Positions 1 to 51,064 of a stretch of 64,000 nt of DNA are shown piece after piece. The translations under genes and the position numbers were made by a program. The stretch comes from a virus. Taxonomy: Duplodnaviria > Heunggongvirae > Uroviricota > Caudoviricetes. The stretch lies in the IMG/VR virus record IMGVR_UViG_2861084961_000001; one strand, written 5' to 3'. The notes beneath the pieces were generated by a model that saw only the letters and a program-made list of their open reading frames with translations, made no database searches and was not told the DNA's origin. How positions within the stretch are numbered: the stretch's first letter is position 1; every line of letters starts with the position of its first letter.

Positions 1-130
1 GTTACGTCACTGGAACCCTATGGCTGTCAGCATAGACCCATCTAGTCAGATTCTCACCATCATCTCCAAAGAAGACCGCCACATTGAAGTGGGTGTTACA
101 ACATTTGATGCCAGGTCTACCAACCACTAA
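1..130 (+). CDS. 3' end of an unidentified gene (partial, open frame ending in TAA at 128-130)
   Basis: Open frame from window edge to stop at 128-130, followed by terminator hairpin. Confidence 0.3.
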   Translation, partial: LRHWNPMAVSIDPSSQILTIISKEDRHIEVGVTTFDARSTNH

Positions 131-138
131 TTCCTAAA

Positions 139-165
139 CCCGCTACGGCGGGTTTTTGTTATTAA
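139..165 (+). terminator. Rho-independent terminator hairpin (cccgctacggcggg + T-run)
   Basis: GC stem cccgc/gcggg with tacg loop followed by tttttgtt. Confidence 0.55.
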
Positions 166-291
166 GTCCTTACCAAATCTATGTACCTATCATTAAACCT
201 TTACACCACAGCCGTAGGCATTTAGGCTATATCACATATAAGAAAACAAGTTGTTTCAGACGATAATTATATACGCAAAGGGAACTCTCCA

Positions 292-960
292 ATGACCAAG
301 ATCTTTGTGGTTGGCGGCACAAAGGGCGGGCCTGGCAAATCCACCGTTGCCCAGCAAATTGCCGTTTGCCTGAAAGTCAAAAAGAAGAAGAAGGTTTATA
401 TCACTGATATAGATATTCAGCGCACGACAACAAGCTGGTGTGAAGACCGTCGACAGAACGAAGACCTTGAGCTGATTCCTTTTGCATACGTTCAGGATGA
501 CATCATTAAGCACCTAAAATCGCTTCAGGGTAGAGCTGAGTTTGTAGTGGTAGATGCTGGTGGCTTTGACTCCGAAATTCAGCGACAAGCGATGCTGATG
601 GCCGACGTTATCATTATCCCGCTTCGCCCTAAGCGTCGTGATTTGAAATCTCTGCGTGACATCGATCCTATTATCGACAATGTTCGCAATATAAACGACA
701 AAGTGAAGGTTCGCGCGGTCATGAACCAATGCCCGGCTTTGCCATCACAAGTGTCTCGCATTCTAGCGGCTAAAGAGATTGTCGAGACGTTTGGCATCGA
801 GTCTGCGCCTGTCAATCTATATAACCGCAACGTCTACGATGATGCGGAAGAGTCTGGTCGTTCTATCTTTGAAATGACCGGTAGCGAACGCGACAAAAAG
901 GCGGAAGCCGAGTTTGAAGAATTTGTAGATTATCTGTTGAGTCTGGAGGAAGAAGAATAA
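292..960 (+). CDS. parA: ParA/Soj-family partition ATPase
   Basis: N-terminal deviant Walker A VGGTKGGPGKST; 222 aa typical small ParA; followed by small overlapping partner gene. Confidence 0.85.
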   Translation: MTKIFVVGGTKGGPGKSTVAQQIAVCLKVKKKKKVYITDIDIQRTTTSWCEDRRQNEDLELIPFAYVQDDIIKHLKSLQGRAEFVVVDAGGFDSEIQRQAMLMADVIIIPLRPKRRDLKSLRDIDPIIDNVRNINDKVKVRAVMNQCPALPSQVSRILAAKEIVETFGIESAPVNLYNRNVYDDAEESGRSIFEMTGSERDKKAEAEFEEFVDYLLSLEEEE

Positions 961-1319
961 TGTCCATGAAAATGGGTGACCTAGCAAAGCGCAAAGATAC
1001 TGATGAACCGGCTAAGAATACAACTCCTTTGCGCCAACCACTCAGACCACAGGGACGCCCGACTCGTGGCAAAGAGAAAATTAAAAGCCGCACAATGTCA
1101 TTGGAAGACGAATACTTCGAACTGCTGGAGATGATGAAGTTCATCCCTCGCTTCGAGAAGTTCACTCGTTCTGACGTGATTCGAGCAGCCATTTTCCATC
1201 TGGCAGAGAAGTCACCGCAGGAAATCGAGGACATCGTGAAATTGAATGAGGCGATCACCGCTGCCGATGTCACGATGCGTACCGATGAAATCAAACGAGA
1301 GTTGATGAAGAAAGGTTAA
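960..1319 (+). CDS. Small partition partner protein (ParB/ParG-like centromere-binding candidate)
   Basis: 119 aa ORF start-overlapping parA stop (ATGA-type coupling); basic N-terminus; position typical of type Ib par operon. Confidence 0.45.
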   Translation: MSMKMGDLAKRKDTDEPAKNTTPLRQPLRPQGRPTRGKEKIKSRTMSLEDEYFELLEMMKFIPRFEKFTRSDVIRAAIFHLAEKSPQEIEDIVKLNEAITAADVTMRTDEIKRELMKKG

Positions 1320-1323
1320 AAAT

Positions 1324-1356
1324 CATGCATTGGCGCGTACATTGCGCCAATGCATG
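1324..1356. terminator. Perfect palindrome catgcattggcgc-gtacat-tgcgccaatgcatg, bidirectional terminator candidate between convergent genes
   Basis: 12-13 bp perfect inverted repeat between convergent parB-like (+) and GIY-YIG (-) genes. Confidence 0.5.
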
Positions 1357-1371
1357 AGTACAATGTCAGTT

Positions 1372-2139
1372 TTATGCCGCGCTAACACTATGTTCAGTCC
1401 TAACCACTCCAACCTTCACAAAAGGGCTACCGTAGCTTGGTGGCTTCTTGATTAATTTGCCTACATACAGTTTTCTAATATGCTCATCGGCTATTCTGCC
1501 AACAAATTCATAACGTTTTGTGTCGGGGCCAAGAGCTATATCCCTTGTAAAGTACTGCTGAGAACCGGCTTTGACCCAGCATTCAATCTGATAAACTTCC
1601 ATTATCAGCCCACCATATGTAGCGTAGGCATATTTGAGATTCTCGTCTCTTGGAACCTTTGCCCATACGCCACGCGTTGCTTCATATAATGCCAGAGCGG
1701 ACATTCCTGACTTGTAGGTGCTGTTTAGCAGGAAGGCAAGACCAGCGTGCTCAGGAGCAATTTCAGTTTCCTCTTGCAGCACTAAGTGATGGTAGGCGTC
1801 CAGTGATATTCTGCCCATCATGGAACCACTTCCTCGTACCTTATTCGTAAGCTCTCCGACCCCCATAAGGTCGATGCATGTCGCCTCAACAAGTTTGGCT
1901 GTGGTTTCATCCATACCATGACGAAGAATATCTATGCCTAATTTTTTATTAGCCAAAAGTTCTTTGATCCGCATGGATTTGGGAGAGTCATCGGGATACT
2001 TGATGTGATCGAGACAACGAGTCGATTTGCCTTTTCCTATGTAAAACGGTCTTTTCATCTTGTCTTCTGTATCATAGAGACAGTAAACATAGTATTTAGC
2101 CTTATCCAATGATCTCGCGTATACCGATAAATCGTCCAT
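1372..2139 (-). CDS. GIY-YIG domain protein (homing-endonuclease-like)
   Basis: N-terminal YVYCLYD...PFYIGKGKSTRCLDHIKY matches GIY-YIG nuclease motif; 255 aa; opposite strand to surrounding operons. Confidence 0.55.
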   Translation of the reverse strand: MDDLSVYARSLDKAKYYVYCLYDTEDKMKRPFYIGKGKSTRCLDHIKYPDDSPKSMRIKELLANKKLGIDILRHGMDETTAKLVEATCIDLMGVGELTNKVRGSGSMMGRISLDAYHHLVLQEETEIAPEHAGLAFLLNSTYKSGMSALALYEATRGVWAKVPRDENLKYAYATYGGLIMEVYQIECWVKAGSQQYFTRDIALGPDTKRYEFVGRIADEHIRKLYVGKLIKKPPSYGSPFVKVGVVRTEHSVSAA

Positions 2140-2248
2140 TATTGCATCTCTTAGCTACTGACTAATGCGTTCTATTTTACACATAAGTTTTTAATCAATT
2201 TAACAGGCTCAAAGTGTAGAGCTTCTGGGCGTCTAAGACGACAAGTTA

Positions 2249-2306
2249 TGCCTGCTTCTGTATATATAAATAATAAGTAACTTATTAAATATATACGGAA
2301 GCAGGT
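2249..2306. repeat. Large hairpin cctgcttctgtatat...atatacggaagcagg (15 bp stem, AT-rich loop); near-identical copy at 48859..48912
   Basis: Inverted repeat visible in sequence; second copy 46 kb away. Confidence 0.6.
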
Positions 2307-2412
2307 CTTTTAAAAGACACCACCAGAACAACTCCCTTCCGTTTCCACTTCCAAAAACTGCCACCAGTCGCTATCATCCGCTTATTGTGATAAGTAAGTA
2401 ACTACCTACCAG

Positions 2413-3162
2413 GTGAGCCACATGAGCCAAATCTTTTTCGACACCATCGACAACGACCAGTACGACTTCATGACAGAGTGGAATACCGCTGTTATGGATA
2501 AGTGGGTTGCTGAAAACATTGGTTTGTCGCGCTGCAAAGACGAGGCTGAACTTTTCGATACGAAGTGGTTTGATTACCGCGACATGCATCCTCTTATGGC
2601 CACCTGTCTATTTACGGAGGCATACAAACGTCAGTACTCAAATATCATGCTGACGCACGGTCGTGAACACTTTGAAACAGCTCCGTTCACCACCGGGTTA
2701 AAACGCCTGCCTTATCAGGAGTTGTCGACTGCCAATAAAACGTCGCTATGGAAAGCACGCCAGTTTGCTGACCGCTATTGCTGCTCATACGACTACTTTA
2801 TCTCCACTGTTCTTTCCGCAGCTGCACGACGTCTGTGGGACAAGCTGCCTCGCCCACAACATTTGTGGCAGCCAGAACTGATTGAGATATTTGAAGAGAA
2901 ATTAGCCAGACGCGCAACAACCCGTCTGGATGACTCTCTGGTTAGCTTTAAGCATATGGGAGACATGCAGTTCAACCCGATCCAGGAAAGCTATTTTGAG
3001 TGGATTCTGGAGCGTTTACGCACCATCCCCCGCAGCAAGCGCATACGCGCAATTTTCTCCGCTATCTGGCTAATGGAAATTGTTCCAGAGCGCCTTATTT
3101 CCGCCCACTTTCCAGAAGAACTGGAAGAAGCACGGCGGTTTATTGATCCCCTATCTAATTAA
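2413..3162 (+). CDS. Hypothetical protein (249 aa)
   Basis: Long ORF in operon context upstream of helicase; no recognisable motif. Confidence 0.45.
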   Translation: MSHMSQIFFDTIDNDQYDFMTEWNTAVMDKWVAENIGLSRCKDEAELFDTKWFDYRDMHPLMATCLFTEAYKRQYSNIMLTHGREHFETAPFTTGLKRLPYQELSTANKTSLWKARQFADRYCCSYDYFISTVLSAAARRLWDKLPRPQHLWQPELIEIFEEKLARRATTRLDDSLVSFKHMGDMQFNPIQESYFEWILERLRTIPRSKRIRAIFSAIWLMEIVPERLISAHFPEELEEARRFIDPLSN

Positions 3163-3205
3163 CTAATACTAGAAAACAATTTGTTTAAAAAACAAAGGAA
3201 AGCAC

Positions 3206-4546
3206 ATGACCGAACTTTGCCATACAGGACGCGGGCTGTCCGAAGAGTTTGATGAAGATTTCCAGAACAGACTGACGGCATATTTTTGTCGTGATCACGA
3301 GTTTCTTACTCGTGCGGGAGATCTGGTTGTGCCTAGCCAATTTGCCAATGCGGCCAATGCCATATTGGTTAATATGGTTTCGGGCTATTACCGTATGTAC
3401 AAGAGCGCGCCCTCTTCATCTGCAATTCTGGATATGCTTAAGCGTGCGAAACGCGATAAGACTATCCGTGAGGAACTATTCGCCGATGTTGTTGCTGCGT
3501 TTAAGCGCATCCTTGCAGAAAAATTGTCCGATACCTCGTACATGGTTGACCAGGTATCAACCTTCGCAAAAAGCGTAGCGTTTGATGATGCTCTGATTAA
3601 GGCTGCTGAACTGAAAGAGAAGGGCGACTTTCAGGGGGCGATGGCAATCATGGCCAAGGTTCAGCAGATTGGATCGAACGAAGCGACCGGAATCTATGAC
3701 TACTACACCTCCGCAAGTGAGCGATTGAAAGCGCGTGAATATGAGGCTTCAGAGGAGTATGTACCAAACAGTATTACAACTGGACTCCCTCTTCTCGATA
3801 GGTTGCTGTACCAAAAAGGCTGGGCAAAGCGCGAAATGGTGCTCTTCATGGGGTTCGCTAAATCCGGTAAATCGACCGCAATGGGTGAGTTTTCCATAAA
3901 CGCAACGCTTGCTGGCTACAATGTTCTGTATCTCTCGCTGGAGGTTCACACCAACATTTTGTCCGACCGCTTTGATGCAAGATTGTCGGAGACGGAAATG
4001 TCCAAGCTGGTGGAACGGCGCGATGAAGTTCATCGTAAGTTGGCAGAGTTGGGAGCCACGAAGGGGATTGGTAGTTTGTGGGTTGTTGAGCGTCCGTCAG
4101 GAAGTATGTCACCGGCAGATCTGGACCGTATGCTTAACAGCATGAAAGCCAATGGCATGGTGCCTGACATGGTTGTTGTCGACTACGCAGATTTGATGCG
4201 TGCCAGTTATGACCTTCGTGATGATCGCGCCAATATTCGTAGTATCTACACCGATTTACGTGCTCTTTATGACAAACATAACGTTGCTGGGATCACGGCA
4301 TCGCAGACAAACCGTGAAGGTGGCGCGTCAGAAGTTGCCACAATGATGCACGCTGCCGACAACATCGAAAAAGTACGTATTGCTGACCTGGTAATAACGA
4401 TCAACAAAACCGAAGAAGAAGAAGCGAAAGGAGAGGCTCGTCTCTACTTTGCTGGTTCGCGTAACCAGCAGGGAGGGATCAGCATTCGCGTTAAACAAAA
4501 TCTCGAACAAATGCGCTTCATTGAGCGAATCTTAGACGTTACCTAA
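3206..4546 (+). CDS. DnaB-like replicative DNA helicase
   Basis: RecA-fold C-terminal domain with Walker A GFAKSGKST and Walker B VVVDYADLM; conserved upstream AAAGGAAAGCACATG start context. Confidence 0.8.
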   Translation: MTELCHTGRGLSEEFDEDFQNRLTAYFCRDHEFLTRAGDLVVPSQFANAANAILVNMVSGYYRMYKSAPSSSAILDMLKRAKRDKTIREELFADVVAAFKRILAEKLSDTSYMVDQVSTFAKSVAFDDALIKAAELKEKGDFQGAMAIMAKVQQIGSNEATGIYDYYTSASERLKAREYEASEEYVPNSITTGLPLLDRLLYQKGWAKREMVLFMGFAKSGKSTAMGEFSINATLAGYNVLYLSLEVHTNILSDRFDARLSETEMSKLVERRDEVHRKLAELGATKGIGSLWVVERPSGSMSPADLDRMLNSMKANGMVPDMVVVDYADLMRASYDLRDDRANIRSIYTDLRALYDKHNVAGITASQTNREGGASEVATMMHAADNIEKVRIADLVITINKTEEEEAKGEARLYFAGSRNQQGGISIRVKQNLEQMRFIERILDVT

Positions 4547-4627
4547 AAAATAAGCGTGGAGAACACCTCCACGCTTGATTCATTGGTGAAACAACTTTTC
4601 TTTTGCCAAACCACAAAAGAAAAACAC

Positions 4628-5809
4628 ATGAGCCTTTATGTTATATCAACATTTAGGTTGGTCACAATATTGCCTGTTAAAAGTGGAATTATCGTGAGCG
4701 AGCTGAAAGAGCTAATTACCGAATTAGATTTTGAACAATGGTTGGATACTGAAGGTATCGTTTATCGACGTGGAGGCGTGAGTGCTCGCGGTCGTGAAGT
4801 GAATATCAAGGAGTGTCCGGTATGCGGCAGCTCCAACTGGAAGGTATATTTCAATCTGACCAGCGGCGTCGGTAAATGCTTCGCTGGTGATCATCCCGAA
4901 GAGATTCAGTTCAATAAGCTGGTCTTCCTCAAGCACTACAGCGGTAAATCACGACGACAGTTCGAGGAATATGTGCAGAACGCTCTTCTTTCCCAGGGGT
5001 GGGCACCAAAGAAAGAAGAGATAGTGCTTGCAAGCACAGTCGAGTTAGAGGGACCACTTGCACTCCCTCGTCATTACGAACTTCCTATAGATGGCCGTCT
5101 TCCAGACTATCTGGTTGAACGAAACATATCGCCTGAAATGGCAAAGTATTTTGACCTACGATACTGCGTCGAAGGCAAGCACGCTTATGTTGACCCGTAT
5201 ACAGATCAGGTTAAAGGACAGATATTCGATATGCGAATACTGATACCGGTTTACGATCTGGATGGGGTAATGAAGACATTTCAGGGGCGAGACATTACCG
5301 GTGCAGCAGAACGTCGCTACCTCTTTCCTATGCAGCTTCCAGCTTCAGGTAAGTTTCTCTACAACGGCCATAATGCGCTCGGCAAACAGACTGTAGTTGT
5401 CTGTGAGGGGGCGTTCGATGTTATGGGGGTTAAACGAGCTATTTTTGATGAAGAAACATTACGTGATTACGTGGAACCGATAGGAACGTTCGGGATGCAT
5501 CTATCTGGCAACACCACTCAAGATGCAGAAGATCAGTTGGGCGCGTTCCTGACGCTCAAGGCACGTGGATTACGTAATGTGATCATGATGTGGGATAGTG
5601 AAAAGCAAGCTATACGCAACACTATGGCCGCGGCCAGGCGACTGACCAGTATTGGTCTTAATGTCAAAGTAGCGTGTTTGGGCGAGGAAGGACTCGACCC
5701 CGGCGATGCAACGCCAGAACAAATTATCAAAGCCTATTATCGGGCAAAACCGTATACCAAACAGTTGGAGTTGCAAAGCAAGGTTTTAGGCATTAAGGCT
5801 CTATCGTAA
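4628..5809 (+). CDS. DNA primase (zinc-finger + TOPRIM)
   Basis: CPVCGSS...GKCFAGDH zinc-binding motif; TOPRIM-like VVVCEGAFDVM; start chosen at ATG 4628 preceded by conserved AAAGAAAAACACATG rather than the longer ORF start 4556. Confidence 0.75.
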   Translation: MSLYVISTFRLVTILPVKSGIIVSELKELITELDFEQWLDTEGIVYRRGGVSARGREVNIKECPVCGSSNWKVYFNLTSGVGKCFAGDHPEEIQFNKLVFLKHYSGKSRRQFEEYVQNALLSQGWAPKKEEIVLASTVELEGPLALPRHYELPIDGRLPDYLVERNISPEMAKYFDLRYCVEGKHAYVDPYTDQVKGQIFDMRILIPVYDLDGVMKTFQGRDITGAAERRYLFPMQLPASGKFLYNGHNALGKQTVVVCEGAFDVMGVKRAIFDEETLRDYVEPIGTFGMHLSGNTTQDAEDQLGAFLTLKARGLRNVIMMWDSEKQAIRNTMAAARRLTSIGLNVKVACLGEEGLDPGDATPEQIIKAYYRAKPYTKQLELQSKVLGIKALS

Positions 5810-10111: not shown

Positions 10112-10186
10112 GATGGTGTAGCTCAGCGGTAGAGCAGTTGGCTGTTAACCAACTGGTCGGTGGTTCGAATCCACCCACCATCGCCA
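10112..10186 (+). tRNA. tRNA-Asn (anticodon GTT)
   Basis: Cloverleaf by eye: acceptor gatggtg/caccatc, anticodon loop ctGTTaa, T-loop ggttcgaat, CCA end. Confidence 0.8.
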
Positions 10187-10191
10187 ATTTA

Positions 10192-10278
10192 GGGGAGTTA
10201 GTCCGTAGAGGTAGCGGTGTAGACTGTAAATCTACTGTCATGGCGACTCGGGTGGTTCGACTCCATCACTCCCCACCA
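10192..10278 (+). tRNA. tRNA-Tyr (anticodon GTA), type II with long variable arm
   Basis: Acceptor ggggagt/actcccc, anticodon loop ctGTAaa, T-loop ggttcgact, CCA end. Confidence 0.75.
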
Positions 10279-10282
10279 AATT

Positions 10283-10358
10283 GCCGGTTTAGCTCAGTTG
10301 GTAGAGCGCCTGCCTTGTAAGCAGGATGTCAGCGGTTCGAGTCCGTTAACCGGCACCA
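10283..10358 (+). tRNA. tRNA-Thr (anticodon TGT)
   Basis: Acceptor gccggtt/aaccggc, D-arm agctcagttggtagagc, anticodon stem cctgc/gcagg with loop ctTGTaa, CCA end. Confidence 0.75.
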
Positions 10359-46531: not shown

Positions 46532-47088
46532 ATGACAACGATTGTTGCAGGCATCGATATCGAGTCTACGGGACTGGATTTCCTTGCTGGTCATAAAATT
46601 ATTGAAATCGCAATTACCCGCTATGAACTGGAGACACAGAGACATATTGATAGTCTGGAGATGCGTTTTAACCCTCGCAGAAACATAGATCCGAAAGCTC
46701 AAGCCGTTCATGGCATTTCATTGGAACAGCTCGCAGCTGAACCTTTGTTGTCAAATCATGCCAGCGAAATTGGCGCTTATATGGGGGCATGTAGTGCGTG
46801 GATTGCTCATAACGGCGAAGCGTTTGATATACCATTTATTCGACACGAGTTTTCAGGGTATGGAGTAAGACTGCCAGACGTTCCTGTTATAGATACTATG
46901 TTATCGGGATTGTGGCCACAGAAGACGGTAAACGTCCCCGCCTTGAAGAGTTGGCCTTCTCTCTTGGCTTTATATACGATCATGCCAAAGCACATAGTGC
47001 CTTATATGACACAAACTTAATGATGCAATGCTTCTTTAAGGCACGTAATAAGTACGGATTTTTTAAATTACCCTCTGAAATTGTGTAA
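46532..47088 (+). CDS. DnaQ-like 3'-5' exonuclease (DEDDh), frame break near 46940-46960
   Basis: Exo I GIDIESTGLD, Exo II HNGEAFDIPFI, and Exo III HSALYDTNLM in the -1 frame downstream of a cccc run. Confidence 0.65.
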
Positions 47089-47248
47089 AGCAAAAGCCTA
47101 CTTTAAAGAGAGTTTAAAGTAGGCTTTCTTTTAAAGAACAGTCGCCTTTCAATCATTTCCTGCCTGTATTTAATACTTTTCCGCCTGATAGGTTTAGTCA
47201 AAATATAGCCATCGAAACGCAAATGTAACCAAACAGAAGGAGACTTAC

Positions 47249-48057
47249 ATGAGTTCGGTTGAAAATGTAATGACAAATGATGATCTGGACGAACTGACAG
47301 CTATGTTGCAATCACTTGATGAACCGGTAAAAAAAGCTGCACAGGTTGAGAATACTGATGATATTGACGATCTGCTTCTAGGCCTCGATGCTGGCGTAGC
47401 CATGAGTTCTGATGATGTTGCCGAAGAACTGTTCAATGAAGAAAAAGCAGGTGATTTTAGCTCCGCTTTAAATGAGTTGGAGTTAGCGCATGAGCCTATA
47501 AACGTAATTAACGCTGAAAGTGGTGAAGCTGCCGAAAATGAGCCAGAACAGTTGGGGATCATTGAGGTTGAAGAGTGTGTTGAGGTTAATGATGAATTAA
47601 AAGTTCAACAGTCAAATGATAGCAATACAAATAAAAAGCTCGTGCTGCAAGAGGTCCTCGTTTTACTTTAAGTGATAAAGATGATTCGTTTTTCAATAAA
47701 GCAGGCTTAGAAAAAGATATTTTCTTAGACGCTTATGAAAACGCGCCTGTCAAAGCGAAGGATAAGATATTAAACCTTCTTAATTGGTTTAGCGGAGGTC
47801 CAGATATTAGTGTTTACACGGTAATTTCCATGAGACACCTTCTCACAGAAAAGAAGGCTACAAGTAATAGTATTAAGATTGCTTTAATGAGCAATCCAGA
47901 AAAACCGTATCCGCTTAACACTGCGTCAACTCAGGCTGGGCAAATGATGGCTGTATTTCCAGCTACAGGAATTGCCGTTAGAGACGGTGGAAATCTAACA
48001 TTGAACGAAGAATCACCGATCGTTAAGAAGTTTGTCGCGGAGTACACTATTGGATGA
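47249..48057 (+). CDS. Highly acidic N-terminal protein (DNA-mimic-like anti-restriction candidate), frame break near 47650
   Basis: N-terminal 130 aa rich in D/E; C-terminal part continues in -1 frame; sits immediately upstream of orphan methyltransferase. Confidence 0.4.
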
Positions 48058-48227
48058 CGTTCCCCTACTGAAAATAAAGCCCATAGAGAGCTTTATAGTG
48101 CTGGGTAAGCTAACCCATACCCAGCACCACAAAAACGCGCCAGAGAGCTTCTTGTTCGCATTTCTGGCGCGTTTTATTTGATTGCCATACATAAAATCAA
48201 ATGCAAAAATAGGTAATCACTTACCTA

Positions 48228-48833
48228 TTGAGAAAGAAGATGATTGCAGCCGAAAAAATCAAACAGCGAAAGCGCGACAACTCTCTTCGTGACCTCTGGA
48301 GAACACCTGATTGGCTGTTTTCTGCCATTCAACGTTATCTTGGGGTGACATTTGATGTTGACGTTGCCTGCAACAAGGACAATGCAAAGCTGCCTAATTT
48401 CATAGGCGTTGAGCGTGATGCTTTGAAATCTGAATGGGGACAGCCAGGTACAATTGCCTTCCTCAATCCACCCTACTCCAAAATCTCCCCCTGGATTGAT
48501 GCTGCTATACGTGAGCAGGCTCGCGGAGTTACAACAGTGATGCTAATTCCTCAATCCCTCGATACAAAGTGGTATGAGCGTGCAACAGAGTATGCGAATG
48601 AGACGATTATTCTGTCTGGTGGCCGCGTAGCGTTTGTCGAGCCTGACGTCAATTTGGGTCAGGTAGAAGTAAACATCAACCCCGGTGGCAGTATGCTCGT
48701 TGTTTTTCGAGGATTCTGTCAGGACGCTGGGCACTCTATAAGCAAGATCCCTTTGGACGTAATGAAAAGTCTGGGAGGGTATGATCCTGCGAATGTGGTC
48801 AGGAAAAAAAGACCATCAAAGAAGGCTGCTTAG
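48228..48833 (+). CDS. Phage-type DNA N6-adenine methyltransferase (orphan)
   Basis: Catalytic motif FLNPPYS; ~200 aa; no adjacent restriction endonuclease. Confidence 0.7.
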   Translation: MRKKMIAAEKIKQRKRDNSLRDLWRTPDWLFSAIQRYLGVTFDVDVACNKDNAKLPNFIGVERDALKSEWGQPGTIAFLNPPYSKISPWIDAAIREQARGVTTVMLIPQSLDTKWYERATEYANETIILSGGRVAFVEPDVNLGQVEVNINPGGSMLVVFRGFCQDAGHSISKIPLDVMKSLGGYDPANVVRKKRPSKKAA

Positions 48834-48858
48834 TTTGTTCTGGCGAGTGTAATTAACC

Positions 48859-48912
48859 TGCTTCTGTATATAAATAACTACATATTAATTATTAATATAC
48901 GGAAGCAGGCTG
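48859..48912. repeat. Large hairpin cctgcttctgtatat...atatacggaagcagg, second copy of element at 2249..2306
   Basis: Near-identical stems in both copies. Confidence 0.6.
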
Positions 48913-49018
48913 TTTTGTATCAGAGACTCCCAGACCTGAACACCACTACAGAATCCACTAGAACCCCTTCTCAGACGCTTTAAAATCGATTTTATGAACC
49001 ACTTTAAGGAAAACTAAC

Positions 49019-49249
49019 ATGTCATACCCGACCAATGTTGTTGCGCTCGTAGAGAGCGATTTTCTGGCTAAGGCTCGTGAAATGATGAAAGATCGCGAGC
49101 AGGCTTTCAACTTGTACGAATGGGCAATTAAGTGCTTGCATCTTGGGGAGCATCGCGAACTTGTTGAACAGCTTTTAGGTGAGTTGATCAACGAGGTGTT
49201 TGCCTTGAATGTTCAACTACATGGTCGAGAAAATAACCAATCGAAATGA
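49019..49249 (+). CDS. Hypothetical protein (76 aa)
   Basis: ORF with RBS AAGGAAAACTAACATG. Confidence 0.4.
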   Translation: MSYPTNVVALVESDFLAKAREMMKDREQAFNLYEWAIKCLHLGEHRELVEQLLGELINEVFALNVQLHGRENNQSK

Positions 49250-49830
49250 TAGATAAGTACAAACTATTCATAAGATGGATTGTAAGTGCTAAGATCTGAT
49301 AGTTTCCAGTCGTAGACTGGAGACTCGACCTGATGGGTGGGGGTAAGCGTCACTGGCGTCAGGTTTAAAAAAGCTCACTACCAGCGTAGAACCGGTGCCG
49401 TTTAGGTGTCGGGGAAGGGGGAACCAAAGTGAGCGGAGACAAGGGTCACTTTATGATTGTCGAGTCTGGGATGTTTCGAGAGGTTGAATCCAGTACTCCC
49501 CTTCATAAAGTGTGGGAAGATCTCGGTTCTGGGGTGCTGTCATCCATAACTTCCCAAGTCTAAGCTGGCAGTAGACTTAGACCATAGCTTTTCAGGTTAT
49601 GAAACGACCAGGTTGGTGAGGAATTTTATACTCACCTCCCTGGGAGAGTATTACCTGAAAAGACAACCTCTCACTTCGTTCGAGGTGAACTTCACTCACT
49701 TCGTTCGTTCAGTTCAGGTTTATAAAAACCTGTACTGGGAAGTAATTTGTTTATTTTAATAATTATTACACGCACGCGTGTGCGCACGCGCGAGGAAAAA
49801 ATCGGCGCGGCGCTTGATTCAGGAGTTTAT

Positions 49831-50421
49831 ATGACGTCGAAGACACCAGCCCGGTCGCAAGCAAAAACTCGCAAAAAAGACAAAAACAAAAATTCTCCCC
49901 GCACCAATCCCACAACGCCTGTCGTAGAGTTCAATCCCCAGCTTAAAACCGTGAAAATCTTCAGTGATGGCTCTTGCCTTAAAAATCCGGGTGGCCCGGG
50001 CGGTTACGGTATAGTTCTCCAGTATCGTGGTGAGGAACGCGAGTTCTCAGATGGTTTTCATAGCACCACCAATAACCGCATGGAGATGATGGGGGCACTT
50101 ATCGGGCTGGAGCGTTTGAAATATCCATGCAACGTTATTTTGCACTCTGATAGCCAGTATCTGAAAAACGGCATGACACAGTGGATGAAATGGTGGAAAC
50201 GCAATGGATGGATGACTTCTGACAAAAAACCGGTAAAGAATGTTGATCTGTGGAAGCGTCTGGATGAGGCCGCAAGTCGACATAATGTTCGCTGGAAGTG
50301 GGTTAAAGGTCACGCCGGGCATCGTGAAAATGAAATATGTGATCGACTCGCGAAGATCGCAGCTTTTTCCGCAGCAGATATGCCTCACAAGAAAGATATT
50401 GGTTTTGTTTATAACAAGTAG
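49831..50421 (+). CDS. rnhA: Ribonuclease HI with short basic N-terminal extension
   Basis: [62 protein letters not shown] closely match E. coli RNase HI; start at ATG 49831 rather than ORF start 49747. Confidence 0.85.
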
Positions 50422-50569
50422 TAAGTAAGTGTTTACCTATCATTTTAAATCATGTATCTTATCGGCGTCAGGATGACAATGTGTCGGTAAGACACAGTTC
50501 CAGGATGGAACGAGAAAGGCGGCTGGCAATCGCCAGCCGCAACTCTTTCTGACACTGGATGGAGTCCAC

Positions 50570-51064
50570 ATGGCACGTCAAACCTATTTCACTTCTGCAA
50601 CTAAACGTCCTCGTTCTTTACGTCAAATTTTGGCCGAATTATTTAGCGGTCGTGTTATGTCACGTCTTGATGAACTAGAGACTACCGTTCGGTTGCTGAA
50701 TGAACGTTTAGATAATCAAGCGTCAGTTGTTGCGAACGTGGGGGCGATTGTTGCCTCTGGTTCTTCACGCGAAGCGAAAAGTACACGGCCTTTAGTGAAG
50801 GAGAAAAACAACAAGGACAGTTCGAATGGAAAATTTTCAAAGAAAGAGGCTGAAACCAATGGCCTACGTTCTCATTATAGTTTCACTGGCGACGGTAGCC
50901 GTTCCAGCCGGCCAGAGCCTTTTGATGCCGGATTCATCCATCACCACACCTTCGTCGACGACAATTACCACCACTCCAGTGGAGCGTCCTGTCACTCTGG
51001 ATGGGATGGCGGTGGATGCGATACCTCAAGTTCATCCAGTTACTCAGGATCATGCTGTGACTAA
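50570..51064 (+). CDS. Hypothetical Ser/His/Cys-rich protein (164 aa)
   Basis: ORF. Confidence 0.4.
   Translation: MARQTYFTSATKRPRSLRQILAELFSGRVMSRLDELETTVRLLNERLDNQASVVANVGAIVASGSSREAKSTRPLVKEKNNKDSSNGKFSKKEAETNGLRSHYSFTGDGSRSSRPEPFDAGFIHHHTFVDDNYHHSSGASCHSGWDGGGCDTSSSSSYSGSCCD

What the first reader, a model, noticed from the sequence alone, without database searches (positions are those of the whole stretch)
1372..2139. GIY-YIG endonuclease on the opposite strand between the partition module and the replication genes
The protein carries a clear GIY-YIG signature (YVYCLYD ... PFYIGKGKSTR ... H) and is transcribed against the surrounding operons. It sits between two palindromic elements (1324-1356 and 2249-2306). 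Free-standing GIY-YIG homing endonucleases are common mobile insertions in T4-like genomes.
Basis: partly seen in the sequence, partly recalled or inferred. Interest (0 to 1): 0.4.

Follow-up and report, generated by a model that had tools for sequence, protein, structure and literature searches.

The report
Anti-phage restriction nuclease in phage-plasmid cargo slot
The gene is real, but it is most likely a defence nuclease of the known PD-T4-3/CMoRE family, which cuts invading phage DNA that carries modified cytosines; it is one of several interchangeable cargo genes at a fixed slot of an SSU5-like phage-plasmid, not a self-propagating homing endonuclease.

Summary
A 255-aa ORF lies at 1372-2139 on the minus strand, against the flanking genes, and it has an intact GIY-YIG catalytic set (Y17, Y19, Y33, R41, H45, E85, N99). 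Inverted repeats lie at 1323-1357 and 2251-2305.

The window is an SSU5/pSLy3-type phage-plasmid, not a T4-like genome. The whole protein, including its C-terminal half, matches PD-T4-3/CMoRE, a published single-gene type IV restriction enzyme that cleaves 5hmC/glucosyl-5hmC DNA:
- PADLOC: E 1.3e-23.
- PDB 9U7U/9U75: E 2e-15, 35% identity.

No homing-endonuclease DNA-binding modules were detected.

The gene is a presence/absence cassette (1320-2250). It starts right after the parB-like stop codon and ends at a conserved 55-bp palindrome. The same slot elsewhere holds other cargo (DUF2971/PDC-S31, a KAP NTPase/PDC-S49, several unknown genes) or only 30 bp.

The cassette is 98-99% identical between backbones whose flanks are only 80-91% identical, which points to exchange by recombination. 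Palindrome 1 is the cassette's own terminator. Palindrome 2 belongs to the backbone.

A 2025 preprint already reports PD-T4-3 in SSU5-group phage-plasmids. This is an untested, divergent member of a known family, and interest is low to moderate.

The parts
1372..2139 (-). Single ORF of 255 aa. It is a divergent member of the PD-T4-3/CMoRE family of GIY-YIG type IV (modification-dependent) restriction endonucleases.
1831..2106 (-). [quoted passage not shown] It carries the YxY...YIG motif (Y17, Y19, Y33), R41, H45, E85 and N99. The loop at aa 48-53 is shortened and only weakly acidic (YPDDSP).
1405..1803 (-). C-terminal domain (about aa 113-245), homologous to the modified-cytosine-sensing domain of CMoRE. 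The model also weakly resembles PUA-like readers (EVE/YTH/ASCH).
1323..1357 (-). Perfect 14-bp-stem hairpin followed by TTTTT on the minus strand. It is an intrinsic-terminator-like site for the nuclease gene and may also stop parAB read-through. It is part of the cassette, not of the backbone.
   Evidence: Terminator scan, fold, repeats. It is absent from relatives that lack the cassette; each of those has a different hairpin at this position.
1320..2250 (.). The exchangeable cargo cassette (931 bp): terminator hairpin, nuclease gene and 111 bp of upstream sequence. No flanking direct or inverted repeats were found.
   Evidence: Boundaries from comparison with 8 relatives. 97.9% identical in L009, whose flanks are only 80-91% identical. 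No target-site duplication or terminal inverted repeats.
2140..2250 (-). Upstream non-coding part of the cassette. It presumably carries the gene's own promoter and ribosome-binding site (AAGAG, 9 nt before the ATG). This role is inferred.
   Evidence: Sequence. The strict sigma-70 consensus scan found no site, so the promoter is inferred only from the gene's opposite orientation and from the fact that this stretch travels with the cassette.
2251..2305 (+). Conserved 55-bp AT-rich palindrome with GC-rich ends, followed by TCTTTT. It is a backbone element that forms the right edge of the cargo slot. It is probably a terminator/insulator or a regulator-binding site ahead of the replication module.
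   Evidence: Present in all 9 compared loci whatever the cargo. Fold -30.2 kcal/mol, z = -8.5. Second copy at 48857-48909, in a region that is not variable.
960..1319 (+). parB-like small partition gene (phrog_5111). Its stop codon is the left edge of the cargo slot.
292..960 (+). ParA-type partition ATPase.
   Evidence: Pfam MipZ/AAA_31/CbiA/ParA and phrog_164.
2413..3162 (+). Conserved backbone gene of unknown function (phrog_2500). It is the first gene to the right of the slot, ahead of the DnaB-like helicase and primase genes.

Best explanation
The ORF encodes a single-gene anti-phage defence enzyme of the PD-T4-3/CMoRE family, carried as accessory cargo by an SSU5/pSLy3-type phage-plasmid.

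**Proposed mechanism (by homology with CMoRE).**
1. The gene is expressed from its own promoter while the element is kept as a plasmid prophage.
2. The C-terminal domain recognises hypermodified bases in incoming phage DNA, most likely 5-hydroxymethyl- or glucosyl-hydroxymethyl-cytosine of T-even-like phages.
3. The N-terminal GIY-YIG domain cuts that DNA.
4. Unmodified host and phage-plasmid DNA is spared, so no methylase or antitoxin partner is needed.

This protects both the host and the resident phage-plasmid from competing lytic phages.

**How the gene moves.** It sits in a fixed cargo slot between the parB-like stop codon and a conserved 55-bp palindrome. It spreads among phage-plasmids by recombination in the conserved flanks, not by its own nuclease activity.

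**Shown here:** homology of both domains, intact catalytic residues, cassette boundaries, alternative cargos, and exchange between diverged backbones.
**Inferred:** the substrate, expression, the defence phenotype and the recombination route.
For: **Family match.**
- PADLOC PD-T4-3 model: E 1.3e-23 over aa 11-231.
- phmmer to the crystal-structure sequences 9U7U/9U75: E 2e-15 over aa 12-230, 35% identity (40% in the N-domain, 32% in the C-domain).
- CMoRE's three tyrosines (Y17/Y19/Y31) align with Y17/Y19/Y33. The catalytic Arg and Glu align with R41 and E85. All are invariant in 32 subfamily members.

**Published function.**
- CMoRE is a type IV enzyme that degrades 5hmC/5ghmC DNA and protects against T-even phages by direct defence (PMC12923530).
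- A homologue sharing 48% identity with PD-T4-3 also cuts T4 and Mu DNA, but not unmodified T4-GT7 DNA (PMC12366544).
- PD-T4-3 is active in a native E. coli isolate (bioRxiv 10.1101/2024.12.20.629700).
- DefenseFinder already reports PD-T4-3 in SSU5 clade J phage-plasmids of E. coli/Shigella (bioRxiv 10.1101/2025.09.12.675607).

**Cargo-slot behaviour.**
- The slot has sharp boundaries. Alternative cargos there include the PADLOC candidate defence families PDC-S31 and PDC-S49.
- The cassette is in 107 of 5426 complete E. coli genomes, against 264 that match the surrounding backbone query. All copies are on plasmids.
- It is 97.9-99% identical between backbones whose flanks are only 80-91% identical.
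- 6 and 8 nucleotide differences give 1 amino-acid change each.
Against: - No experiment has tested this subfamily. It is only 35% identical to the characterised enzymes, so substrate specificity may differ.
- The acidic autoinhibitory loop of CMoRE (four consecutive D/E) is 5 residues shorter here and keeps only DD. The loop is variable across the subfamily.
- The one published 5hmC contact is a main-chain atom (Y127, which aligns with L121 here). Sequence therefore cannot confirm that the binding site is kept.
- The global TM-score to 9u75 is low (0.38). I attribute this to a different domain orientation across the flexible linker, but did not verify it domain by domain.
- The consensus scan found no sigma-70-like promoter upstream of the gene.
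Confidence: 0.8

Rival explanations
1. Free-standing GIY-YIG homing endonuclease (Seg/I-Tev-like). It would cleave the empty allele in related phage-plasmids and be copied in by recombinational repair.
For: - The gene is a presence/absence polymorphism at one site, opposite in orientation to its neighbours.
- The cassette is far more conserved than its flanks in a diverged backbone, as expected for a selfish, mobile gene.
- Distant homologues (about 28% identity) in jumbo phages are annotated 'putative homing nuclease'.
Against: - The C-terminal half is homologous to the CMoRE modification-sensing domain, not to the NUMOD, helix-turn-helix or zinc-finger modules of Seg/Tev enzymes. No such Pfam hit appeared at E<=0.1.
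- The same slot holds at least seven other states without a homing nuclease: DUF2971, a KAP NTPase, unknown genes, an IS3 and an empty site. An empty site was seen in only 1 of 60 sampled records.
- Homologues are solitary genes at unrelated sites in Providencia and Salmonella chromosomes and on a conjugative IncFIB plasmid.
- Characterised family members act as restriction enzymes (PMC12923530, PMC12366544).
Confidence: 0.06
2. A lytic-cycle nuclease of the phage itself, like T4 EndoII/DenA. It would degrade host DNA or process replication or recombination intermediates, in the manner of UvrC, Slx1 or LEM-3.
For: - RefSeq names the protein 'LEM-3-like GIY-YIG domain-containing protein'.
- The gene lies next to the replication module.
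Against: - The gene is dispensable. About 60% of related E. coli phage-plasmids lack it, including SSU5 and Cyrano, which are in the phage collection as phage genomes.
- It has a second domain shared only with CMoRE.
- It is transcribed against the replication operon and carries its own terminator.
Confidence: 0.04
3. A CMoRE-like defence nuclease with a different specificity or control from the published enzymes. It might sense another hypermodified base, or act with less self-restraint because the acidic lid is truncated, so that it behaves partly as an abortive-infection or toxic effector.
For: - Only 35% identical to CMoRE, and 32% in the sensor domain.
- The acidic loop is shortened and not conserved in the subfamily.
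- A family member (PD-T4-3Capno) already shows relaxed specificity, cutting both T4 glucosyl-hmC DNA and Mu carbamoylmethyl-adenine DNA (PMC12366544).
- Removing the acidic residues makes CMoRE cut ordinary DNA and become toxic (PMC12923530).
Against: - The gene is stably carried in more than 100 complete E. coli plasmids with an almost invariant protein and no partner gene. That argues against marked toxicity.
- The CMoRE paper says that 'most', not all, family members have the acidic loop, so its absence lies within known family variation.
Confidence: 0.1

Closest known systems
PD-T4-3 / CMoRE (Cytosine Modification Restriction Endonuclease; E. coli ECOR68, APEC O1, O157:H7; PDB 9U7U, 9U7Z, 9U75, 9U8D; PMC12923530)
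   Same: - A single-gene system of similar length (255 aa against 262 aa).
- The same two-domain order: an N-terminal GIY-YIG domain and a C-terminal sensor domain.
- The YxY...YIG three-tyrosine motif, with catalytic Arg and Glu conserved.
- Both domains align over the full length.
- Carried on mobile elements.
   Different: - Only 35% identical.
- It belongs to a distinct subfamily of roughly 246-255 aa that is widespread in Gammaproteobacteria.
- The autoinhibitory acidic loop is 5 residues shorter and has DD instead of DDDE/DDDD.
- Activity, substrate and oligomeric state are untested.
- It sits in a phage-plasmid cargo slot.
Free-standing GIY-YIG homing endonucleases of T4-like phages (SegA-G, I-TevI)
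   Different: - No Seg/Tev-type DNA-binding modules were detected.
- The C-terminal domain is the CMoRE sensor domain.
- The insertion site is a general cargo slot shared with non-nuclease genes.
- The host genome is a siphovirus-type phage-plasmid, not a T4-like phage.
EVE/YTH/SRA-nuclease fusion type IV restriction enzymes (for example VcaM4I EVE-HNH, the McrB N-terminal reader, PvuRts1I/AbaSI-type 5hmC enzymes)
   Different: - Sequence identity is negligible (1-11%).
- The nuclease is GIY-YIG rather than HNH or PD-(D/E)XK.
Defence-gene hotspots of temperate phages and satellites (for example the P2/P4 hotspots described in the defence literature)
   Same: A fixed position between conserved backbone genes that holds different single- or few-gene defence cargos in otherwise near-identical elements.
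   Different: - This slot lies in an SSU5/pSLy3 phage-plasmid, between the partition genes and the replication genes.
- I found no description of it in the searched literature.
- Only three of the cargos match known or candidate defence families; the rest are uncharacterised.
- The comparison with P2/P4 is from my own knowledge and was not tested here.

Membership tests
PD-T4-3 / CMoRE type IV restriction endonuclease | Significant full-length sequence match to the family model or to characterised members | tested here: met
   PADLOC PDLC04031: E 1.3e-23, aa 11-231 against model positions 11-238 of 256. phmmer to 9u7u/9u75: E 2e-15 and 3.5e-15, aa 12-230.
PD-T4-3 / CMoRE type IV restriction endonuclease | 'GIYxY-YIG' motif with three tyrosines, plus the catalytic Arg and Glu | tested here: met
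   Y17, Y19 and Y33 align with CMoRE Y17, Y19 and Y31. R41 and E85 align with the Arg and Glu. All are invariant in 32 homologues.
PD-T4-3 / CMoRE type IV restriction endonuclease | Two-domain fold: an N-terminal GIY-YIG domain plus the family-specific C-terminal modification-sensing domain | tested here: met
   [not shown]
PD-T4-3 / CMoRE type IV restriction endonuclease | 15-residue negatively charged autoinhibitory loop with four consecutive acidic residues (present in 'most' members) | tested here: not met
   The loop is 5 residues shorter. 'YPDDSP' aligns with 'VDDDEL', so 2 of the 4 acidic residues remain, and the loop is variable across the subfamily. The authors do not treat this feature as universal (PMC12923530).
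PD-T4-3 / CMoRE type IV restriction endonuclease | Single-component system with no methylase or partner gene | tested here: met
   The 931-bp cassette holds one ORF of credible size. The other ORFs are short antisense overlaps. Homologues are solitary in chromosomes.
PD-T4-3 / CMoRE type IV restriction endonuclease | Cleavage that depends on 5hmC/5ghmC, and protection against T-even phages | not testable with these tools
   This needs plaque assays and nuclease assays. It is known only for homologues at 35% identity or less to this protein (PMC12923530, PMC12366544).
Free-standing GIY-YIG homing endonuclease (Seg/I-TevI type) | GIY-YIG catalytic domain | tested here: met
   [not shown]
Free-standing GIY-YIG homing endonuclease (Seg/I-TevI type) | C-terminal sequence-tolerant DNA-binding modules (NUMOD, helix-turn-helix, zinc finger) | tested here: not met
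   No such Pfam match at E<=0.1. The C-terminal half aligns with the CMoRE sensor domain instead.
Free-standing GIY-YIG homing endonuclease (Seg/I-TevI type) | Presence/absence at one site between conserved genes, where the allele lacking the gene is a simple empty site that carries the target | tested here: inconclusive
   Presence/absence is real. However, the alternative alleles mostly carry other cargo genes. Only 1 of 60 sampled records was (nearly) empty, with a 30-bp filler.
Free-standing GIY-YIG homing endonuclease (Seg/I-TevI type) | Cleavage of the cognate empty allele, and nuclease-dependent gene conversion | not testable with these tools
   Needs in vitro cleavage mapping and co-infection or co-residence crosses.

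The most novel reading that the evidence does not exclude
The stretch between the parB-like stop codon and the 55-bp palindrome is a dedicated, previously undescribed defence-cargo exchange slot of SSU5/pSLy3 phage-plasmids. On this reading, the uncharacterised cargos found there are new anti-phage genes: a 352-aa protein, a 225-aa protein, a 250+140-aa pair, and the SSU5 214+136-aa pair, none with an accepted Pfam or PADLOC match (only one weak PADLOC hit, E 0.0037). In addition, this CMoRE subfamily, with its truncated acidic lid, would have a different modification specificity or control from the published enzymes. Its sensor domain would be a diverged PUA-like (EVE/YTH/ASCH) reader rather than a new fold.
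Probability: 0.3. Interest if true: 0.5.

Novelty: new member of a known kind. Interest (0 to 1): 0.25.

Why it matters
As an annotation, this replaces two vague or misleading labels with a specific, testable function. The labels are 'hypothetical protein / LEM-3-like GIY-YIG domain protein' and the tempting 'homing endonuclease'. The testable function is a modification-dependent restriction enzyme that a widespread family of E. coli/Shigella phage-plasmids uses to exclude T-even-type phages.

This bears on phage therapy against clinical lineages that carry SSU5-group elements, and on the search for enzymes that read 5hmC.

The sharply bounded cargo slot gives a simple guilt-by-association handle on several uncharacterised genes that may be new defence systems.

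None of this is conceptually new. The family, its mechanism and its presence in SSU5-group phage-plasmids are all published.

Tried and rejected
- **NCBIfam:** no hit for the protein at E<=1.
- **PHROGs:** only a family of unknown function, phrog_5356.
- **Promoter scan:** the sigma-70 consensus scan found no promoter in 1200-2500, so I name no promoter.
- **Transposon signatures:** I looked for direct or inverted repeats bracketing the cassette. Only short matches at chance level turned up, so I rejected transposition or an integron-like site.
- **Palindrome 1 as a partition site (parS):** rejected. It is absent from relatives without the cassette, and each of those has a different hairpin at that position.
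- **The 55-bp palindrome as a general marker of cargo slots:** rejected. Its second copy (48857-48909) lies in a region that is colinear in 205 of 233 E. coli records.
- **Rfam:** only three tRNAs in the window and nothing near the finding.
- **Native-host PD-T4-3:** I checked whether the PD-T4-3 studied in E. coli NILS69 is the phage-plasmid variant. The text searched does not say where that gene lies.
- **Searches not run:** the 1.84-billion-protein representative search and a second homology search seeded with CMoRE. They would refine the family tree but would not change the verdict.

Full report
**1. The observation**

The window carries a 255-aa ORF at 1372-2139 on the minus strand.

Pfam detects a GIY-YIG domain (PF22945, LEM-3-like GIY-YIG): 30.1 bits against a gathering score of 27, over aa 32-104. 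The ORF has 288 homologues at E<=1e-3 in the large protein collection. In an alignment of 32 of them (50-79% identity), the full GIY-YIG catalytic set is invariant: Y17, Y19, Y33, R41, H45, E85 and N99.

The flanking genes are all on the + strand:
- a ParA ATPase gene (292-960);
- a small parB-like gene (960-1319);
- a conserved gene of unknown function (2413-3162);
- a DnaB-like helicase gene (3206-4546);
- a primase gene (4556-5809).

Both palindromes are real:
- a perfect 14-bp-arm inverted repeat at 1323-1357;
- a 55-bp palindrome at 2251-2305.

Both fold far better than shuffled controls, with z = -6.2 and -8.5.

**2. Genomic context**

The window is not T4-like. Bases 1-4500 are 97.8% identical to Escherichia phage PhiR41_1 and about 82% identical to Salmonella phage SSU5. 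The region is found only on plasmids in complete E. coli genomes. This is an SSU5/pSLy3-group phage-plasmid.

**3. What the protein is**

The PADLOC library matches the protein to PD-T4-3 at E 1.3e-23, over aa 11-231. A sequence search of the PDB finds only 9U7U/9U7Z and 9U75/9U8D, at E 2e-15 over aa 12-230.

These entries are the crystal structures of PD-T4-3, renamed CMoRE. CMoRE is a single-component type IV restriction endonuclease that degrades DNA carrying 5hmC or glucosyl-5hmC and protects E. coli from T-even phages by direct defence. [quoted passage not shown]

The HMMER alignment gives 35% identity over 207 positions: 40% in the N-domain and 32% in the C-domain. CMoRE's Y17, Y19 and Y31 map onto Y17, Y19 and Y33 here, and the catalytic Arg and Glu map onto R41 and E85.

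An AlphaFold2 model built from the 32-sequence alignment has mean pLDDT 81.
- **Foldseek against the PDB:** the four CMoRE entries rank first (E 5e-12 to 5e-11, probability 1.0, 261-272 aligned columns). UvrC GIY-YIG domains follow at E of about 0.03.

The global TM-score to 9u75 is only 0.38. I attribute this to a different relative orientation of the two domains across the linker, which is disordered in the crystals. I could not check this domain by domain.

One family feature is not met. The acidic loop is 5 residues shorter, and 'DDDE' is replaced by 'PDDS'. The loop is variable across the whole subfamily. The CMoRE authors state that 'most', not all, members have this loop.

**4. Why it is not a homing endonuclease**

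- The C-terminal half is the CMoRE sensor domain. No Seg/Tev-type DNA-binding module is detected.
- Close homologues (73-76% identity) are solitary genes at unrelated sites:
  - near mutS in Providencia;
  - next to guaA in Salmonella;
  - beside relBE, recombinase genes and IS elements on a conjugative IncFIB plasmid of Citrobacter.
- The polymorphism at this site does not depend on the nuclease (section 5).

**5. The cassette and its slot**

I compared the window with eight relatives. In all of them the variable segment has the same razor-sharp limits. It starts at the base after the parB-like stop codon (window 1320) and ends at the base before the conserved palindrome (window 2250).

Contents of the slot in the relatives:

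| Cargo | Strand | Family match | Example |
|---|---|---|---|
| 267-aa DUF2971 protein | + | PADLOC PDC-S31, E 3e-41 | phage Cyrano |
| Three genes, including a DUF2971 gene | + | PDC-S31 for the DUF2971 gene | SSU5 |
| 567-aa KAP-family P-loop NTPase | + | PDC-S49, E 2.8e-22 | L004 |
| 352-aa protein | - | none | L006 |
| 225-aa protein | - | none | L007 |
| 250-aa + 140-aa pair | + | none accepted (the 250-aa protein has one weak PADLOC hit, PDC-M02B, E 0.0037) | L008 |
| Cargo interrupted or accompanied by an IS3 | | | H143 |
| 30-bp filler only | | | L005 |

Frequency in complete E. coli genomes:
- 264 of 5426 match the 4.3-kb query that spans this backbone region.
- 107 of 5426 match the cassette. 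Some cassette hits sit in truncated or rearranged copies.
- All hits are on plasmids.

Two comparisons show that the cassette moves independently of its backbone.
- In pCUVET18-789.1, the cassette is 97.9% identical to the window (99.0% for the ORF). The flanking genes are only 84% (parA), 91% (parB-like), 85% (phrog_2500) and 80% (dnaB-like) identical.
- Conversely, backbones with 97-99% identical flanks lack the cassette.

The cassette therefore moves horizontally between diverged backbones. Recombination in the conserved flanks is the most likely route, because no target-site duplication or terminal inverted repeats are present. The route is inferred.

The 6 and 8 nucleotide differences in two alleles cause one amino-acid change each. 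The protein is at least 99% identical in 134 plasmid records. Both facts are consistent with purifying selection on a working gene.

Cassette G+C is 43%, against 46-47% in the flanks. The other cargos have 31-42%.

**6. The two palindromes**

*Palindrome 1 (1323-1357)* lies inside the cassette. On the minus strand it is followed by TTTTT, and it is the only terminator-like site the scan found in 1200-2500. Relatives with other cargo have, at the same position just after the parB-like stop codon, a different GC-rich hairpin. The structure is kept while the sequence is not. That fits a terminator between the partition operon and the cargo, and argues against a conserved protein-binding site.

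*Palindrome 2 (2251-2305)* is present in all alleles. It has a second copy at 48857-48909, downstream of an N6-adenine methyltransferase gene. The region around the second copy is colinear in 205 of 233 E. coli records, so the palindrome does not mark cargo slots in general. I regard it as a backbone terminator/insulator or regulator site at the head of the replication module. That reading is inferred.

**7. Mechanism proposed**

This rests on homology with CMoRE.
1. The gene is expressed from the 111-bp upstream region that travels with it. The promoter was not identified.
2. The C-terminal domain binds hypermodified cytosine in incoming phage DNA.
3. The GIY-YIG domain degrades that DNA.
4. 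Unmodified host and phage-plasmid DNA is spared, so no partner gene is needed.

The shortened acidic lid and the 32% identity in the sensor domain leave room for a different specificity or control. A PD-T4-3 homologue from Capnocytophaga already cuts both T4 DNA and Mu DNA (PMC12366544).

**8. Novelty**

The family and its mechanism are published (PMC12923530, PMC12366544). PD-T4-3 has been reported by DefenseFinder in clade J SSU5-group phage-plasmids of E. coli and Shigella (bioRxiv 10.1101/2025.09.12.675607).

This analysis adds three things:
- the exact anatomy of the cargo slot and its alternative contents;
- evidence that the cassette is exchanged between diverged backbones;
- the loop difference from CMoRE.

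I found no description of this slot in the literature I searched.

**9. Verdict**

- The nuclease and mobile-insertion parts of the interpretation are supported.
- The homing-endonuclease and T4-like parts are not supported.
- The gene is an untested, divergent member of a known defence family, sitting in a phage-plasmid cargo hotspot.
- Interest is low to moderate.

Noticed in passing
window 48857-48909 (and 2251-2305): The 55-bp backbone palindrome has a second copy 46.6 kb away. The outer arms are conserved (CCTGCTTCTGTATATA / TATATACGGAAGCAGG) and the centre differs. None of 100 shuffles reached the 4 arm matches found. The second copy lies just after an N6-adenine methyltransferase gene (48228-48833). 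The surrounding region is not variable among relatives.
   Followed up: partly
L006:1696-2754(-), L007:1674-2351(-), L008:1687-2854(+), L003:2184-3228(+): Uncharacterised cargo genes occupy exactly the same slot as the PD-T4-3-like gene in related phage-plasmids: a 352-aa protein, a 225-aa protein, a 250+140-aa pair, and the SSU5 214+136-aa pair. None has a Pfam match, and the only PADLOC hit is one weak match (PDC-M02B, E 0.0037) for the 250-aa protein. They are candidates for new defence genes by association.
   Followed up: partly
first 30-50 bases after the parB-like stop codon in window, L002, L004, L006, L007, L008: Every alternative cargo begins with its own GC-rich hairpin immediately after the parB-like stop codon, and each hairpin has a different sequence. 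The structure is conserved but the sequence is not.
   Followed up: partly
L005:1636-1665 (NZ_CP027369.1): The one (nearly) empty allele keeps a 30-bp filler, CAACTTCCGGTCTGGCAGCTTCAATCAGAA. This resembles the last bases of the SSU5 cargo (…GTTCTGGCAGCTTCAATTCAGAA), which suggests deletion of an SSU5-type cargo rather than a pristine empty site.
   Followed up: no
L016:2968-3732 (Serratia phage Moabite); also phages 2050HW, N1M2 and OBP: Jumbo phages encode distant two-domain relatives (about 28% identity over 85-88% of the query). They are annotated 'G-I-Y Y-I-G endonuclease' or 'putative homing nuclease'. These may instead be CMoRE-like nucleases used in competition between phages.
   Followed up: no
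[not shown]
   Followed up: partly
window 10112-10355: A cluster of three tRNA genes on the + strand.
   Followed up: no
window 49260-49740: About 480 bp without an ORF of 50 aa or more, between a small ORF (49019-49249) and an RNase HI gene (49747-50421). No Rfam family reaches its gathering score there.
   Followed up: no
window 47000-51000: This stretch is 100.0% identical to E. coli strain G749 plasmid NZ_CP014490.1 (109,910 bp). That plasmid may be the source of the window, or a near-identical element.
   Followed up: no
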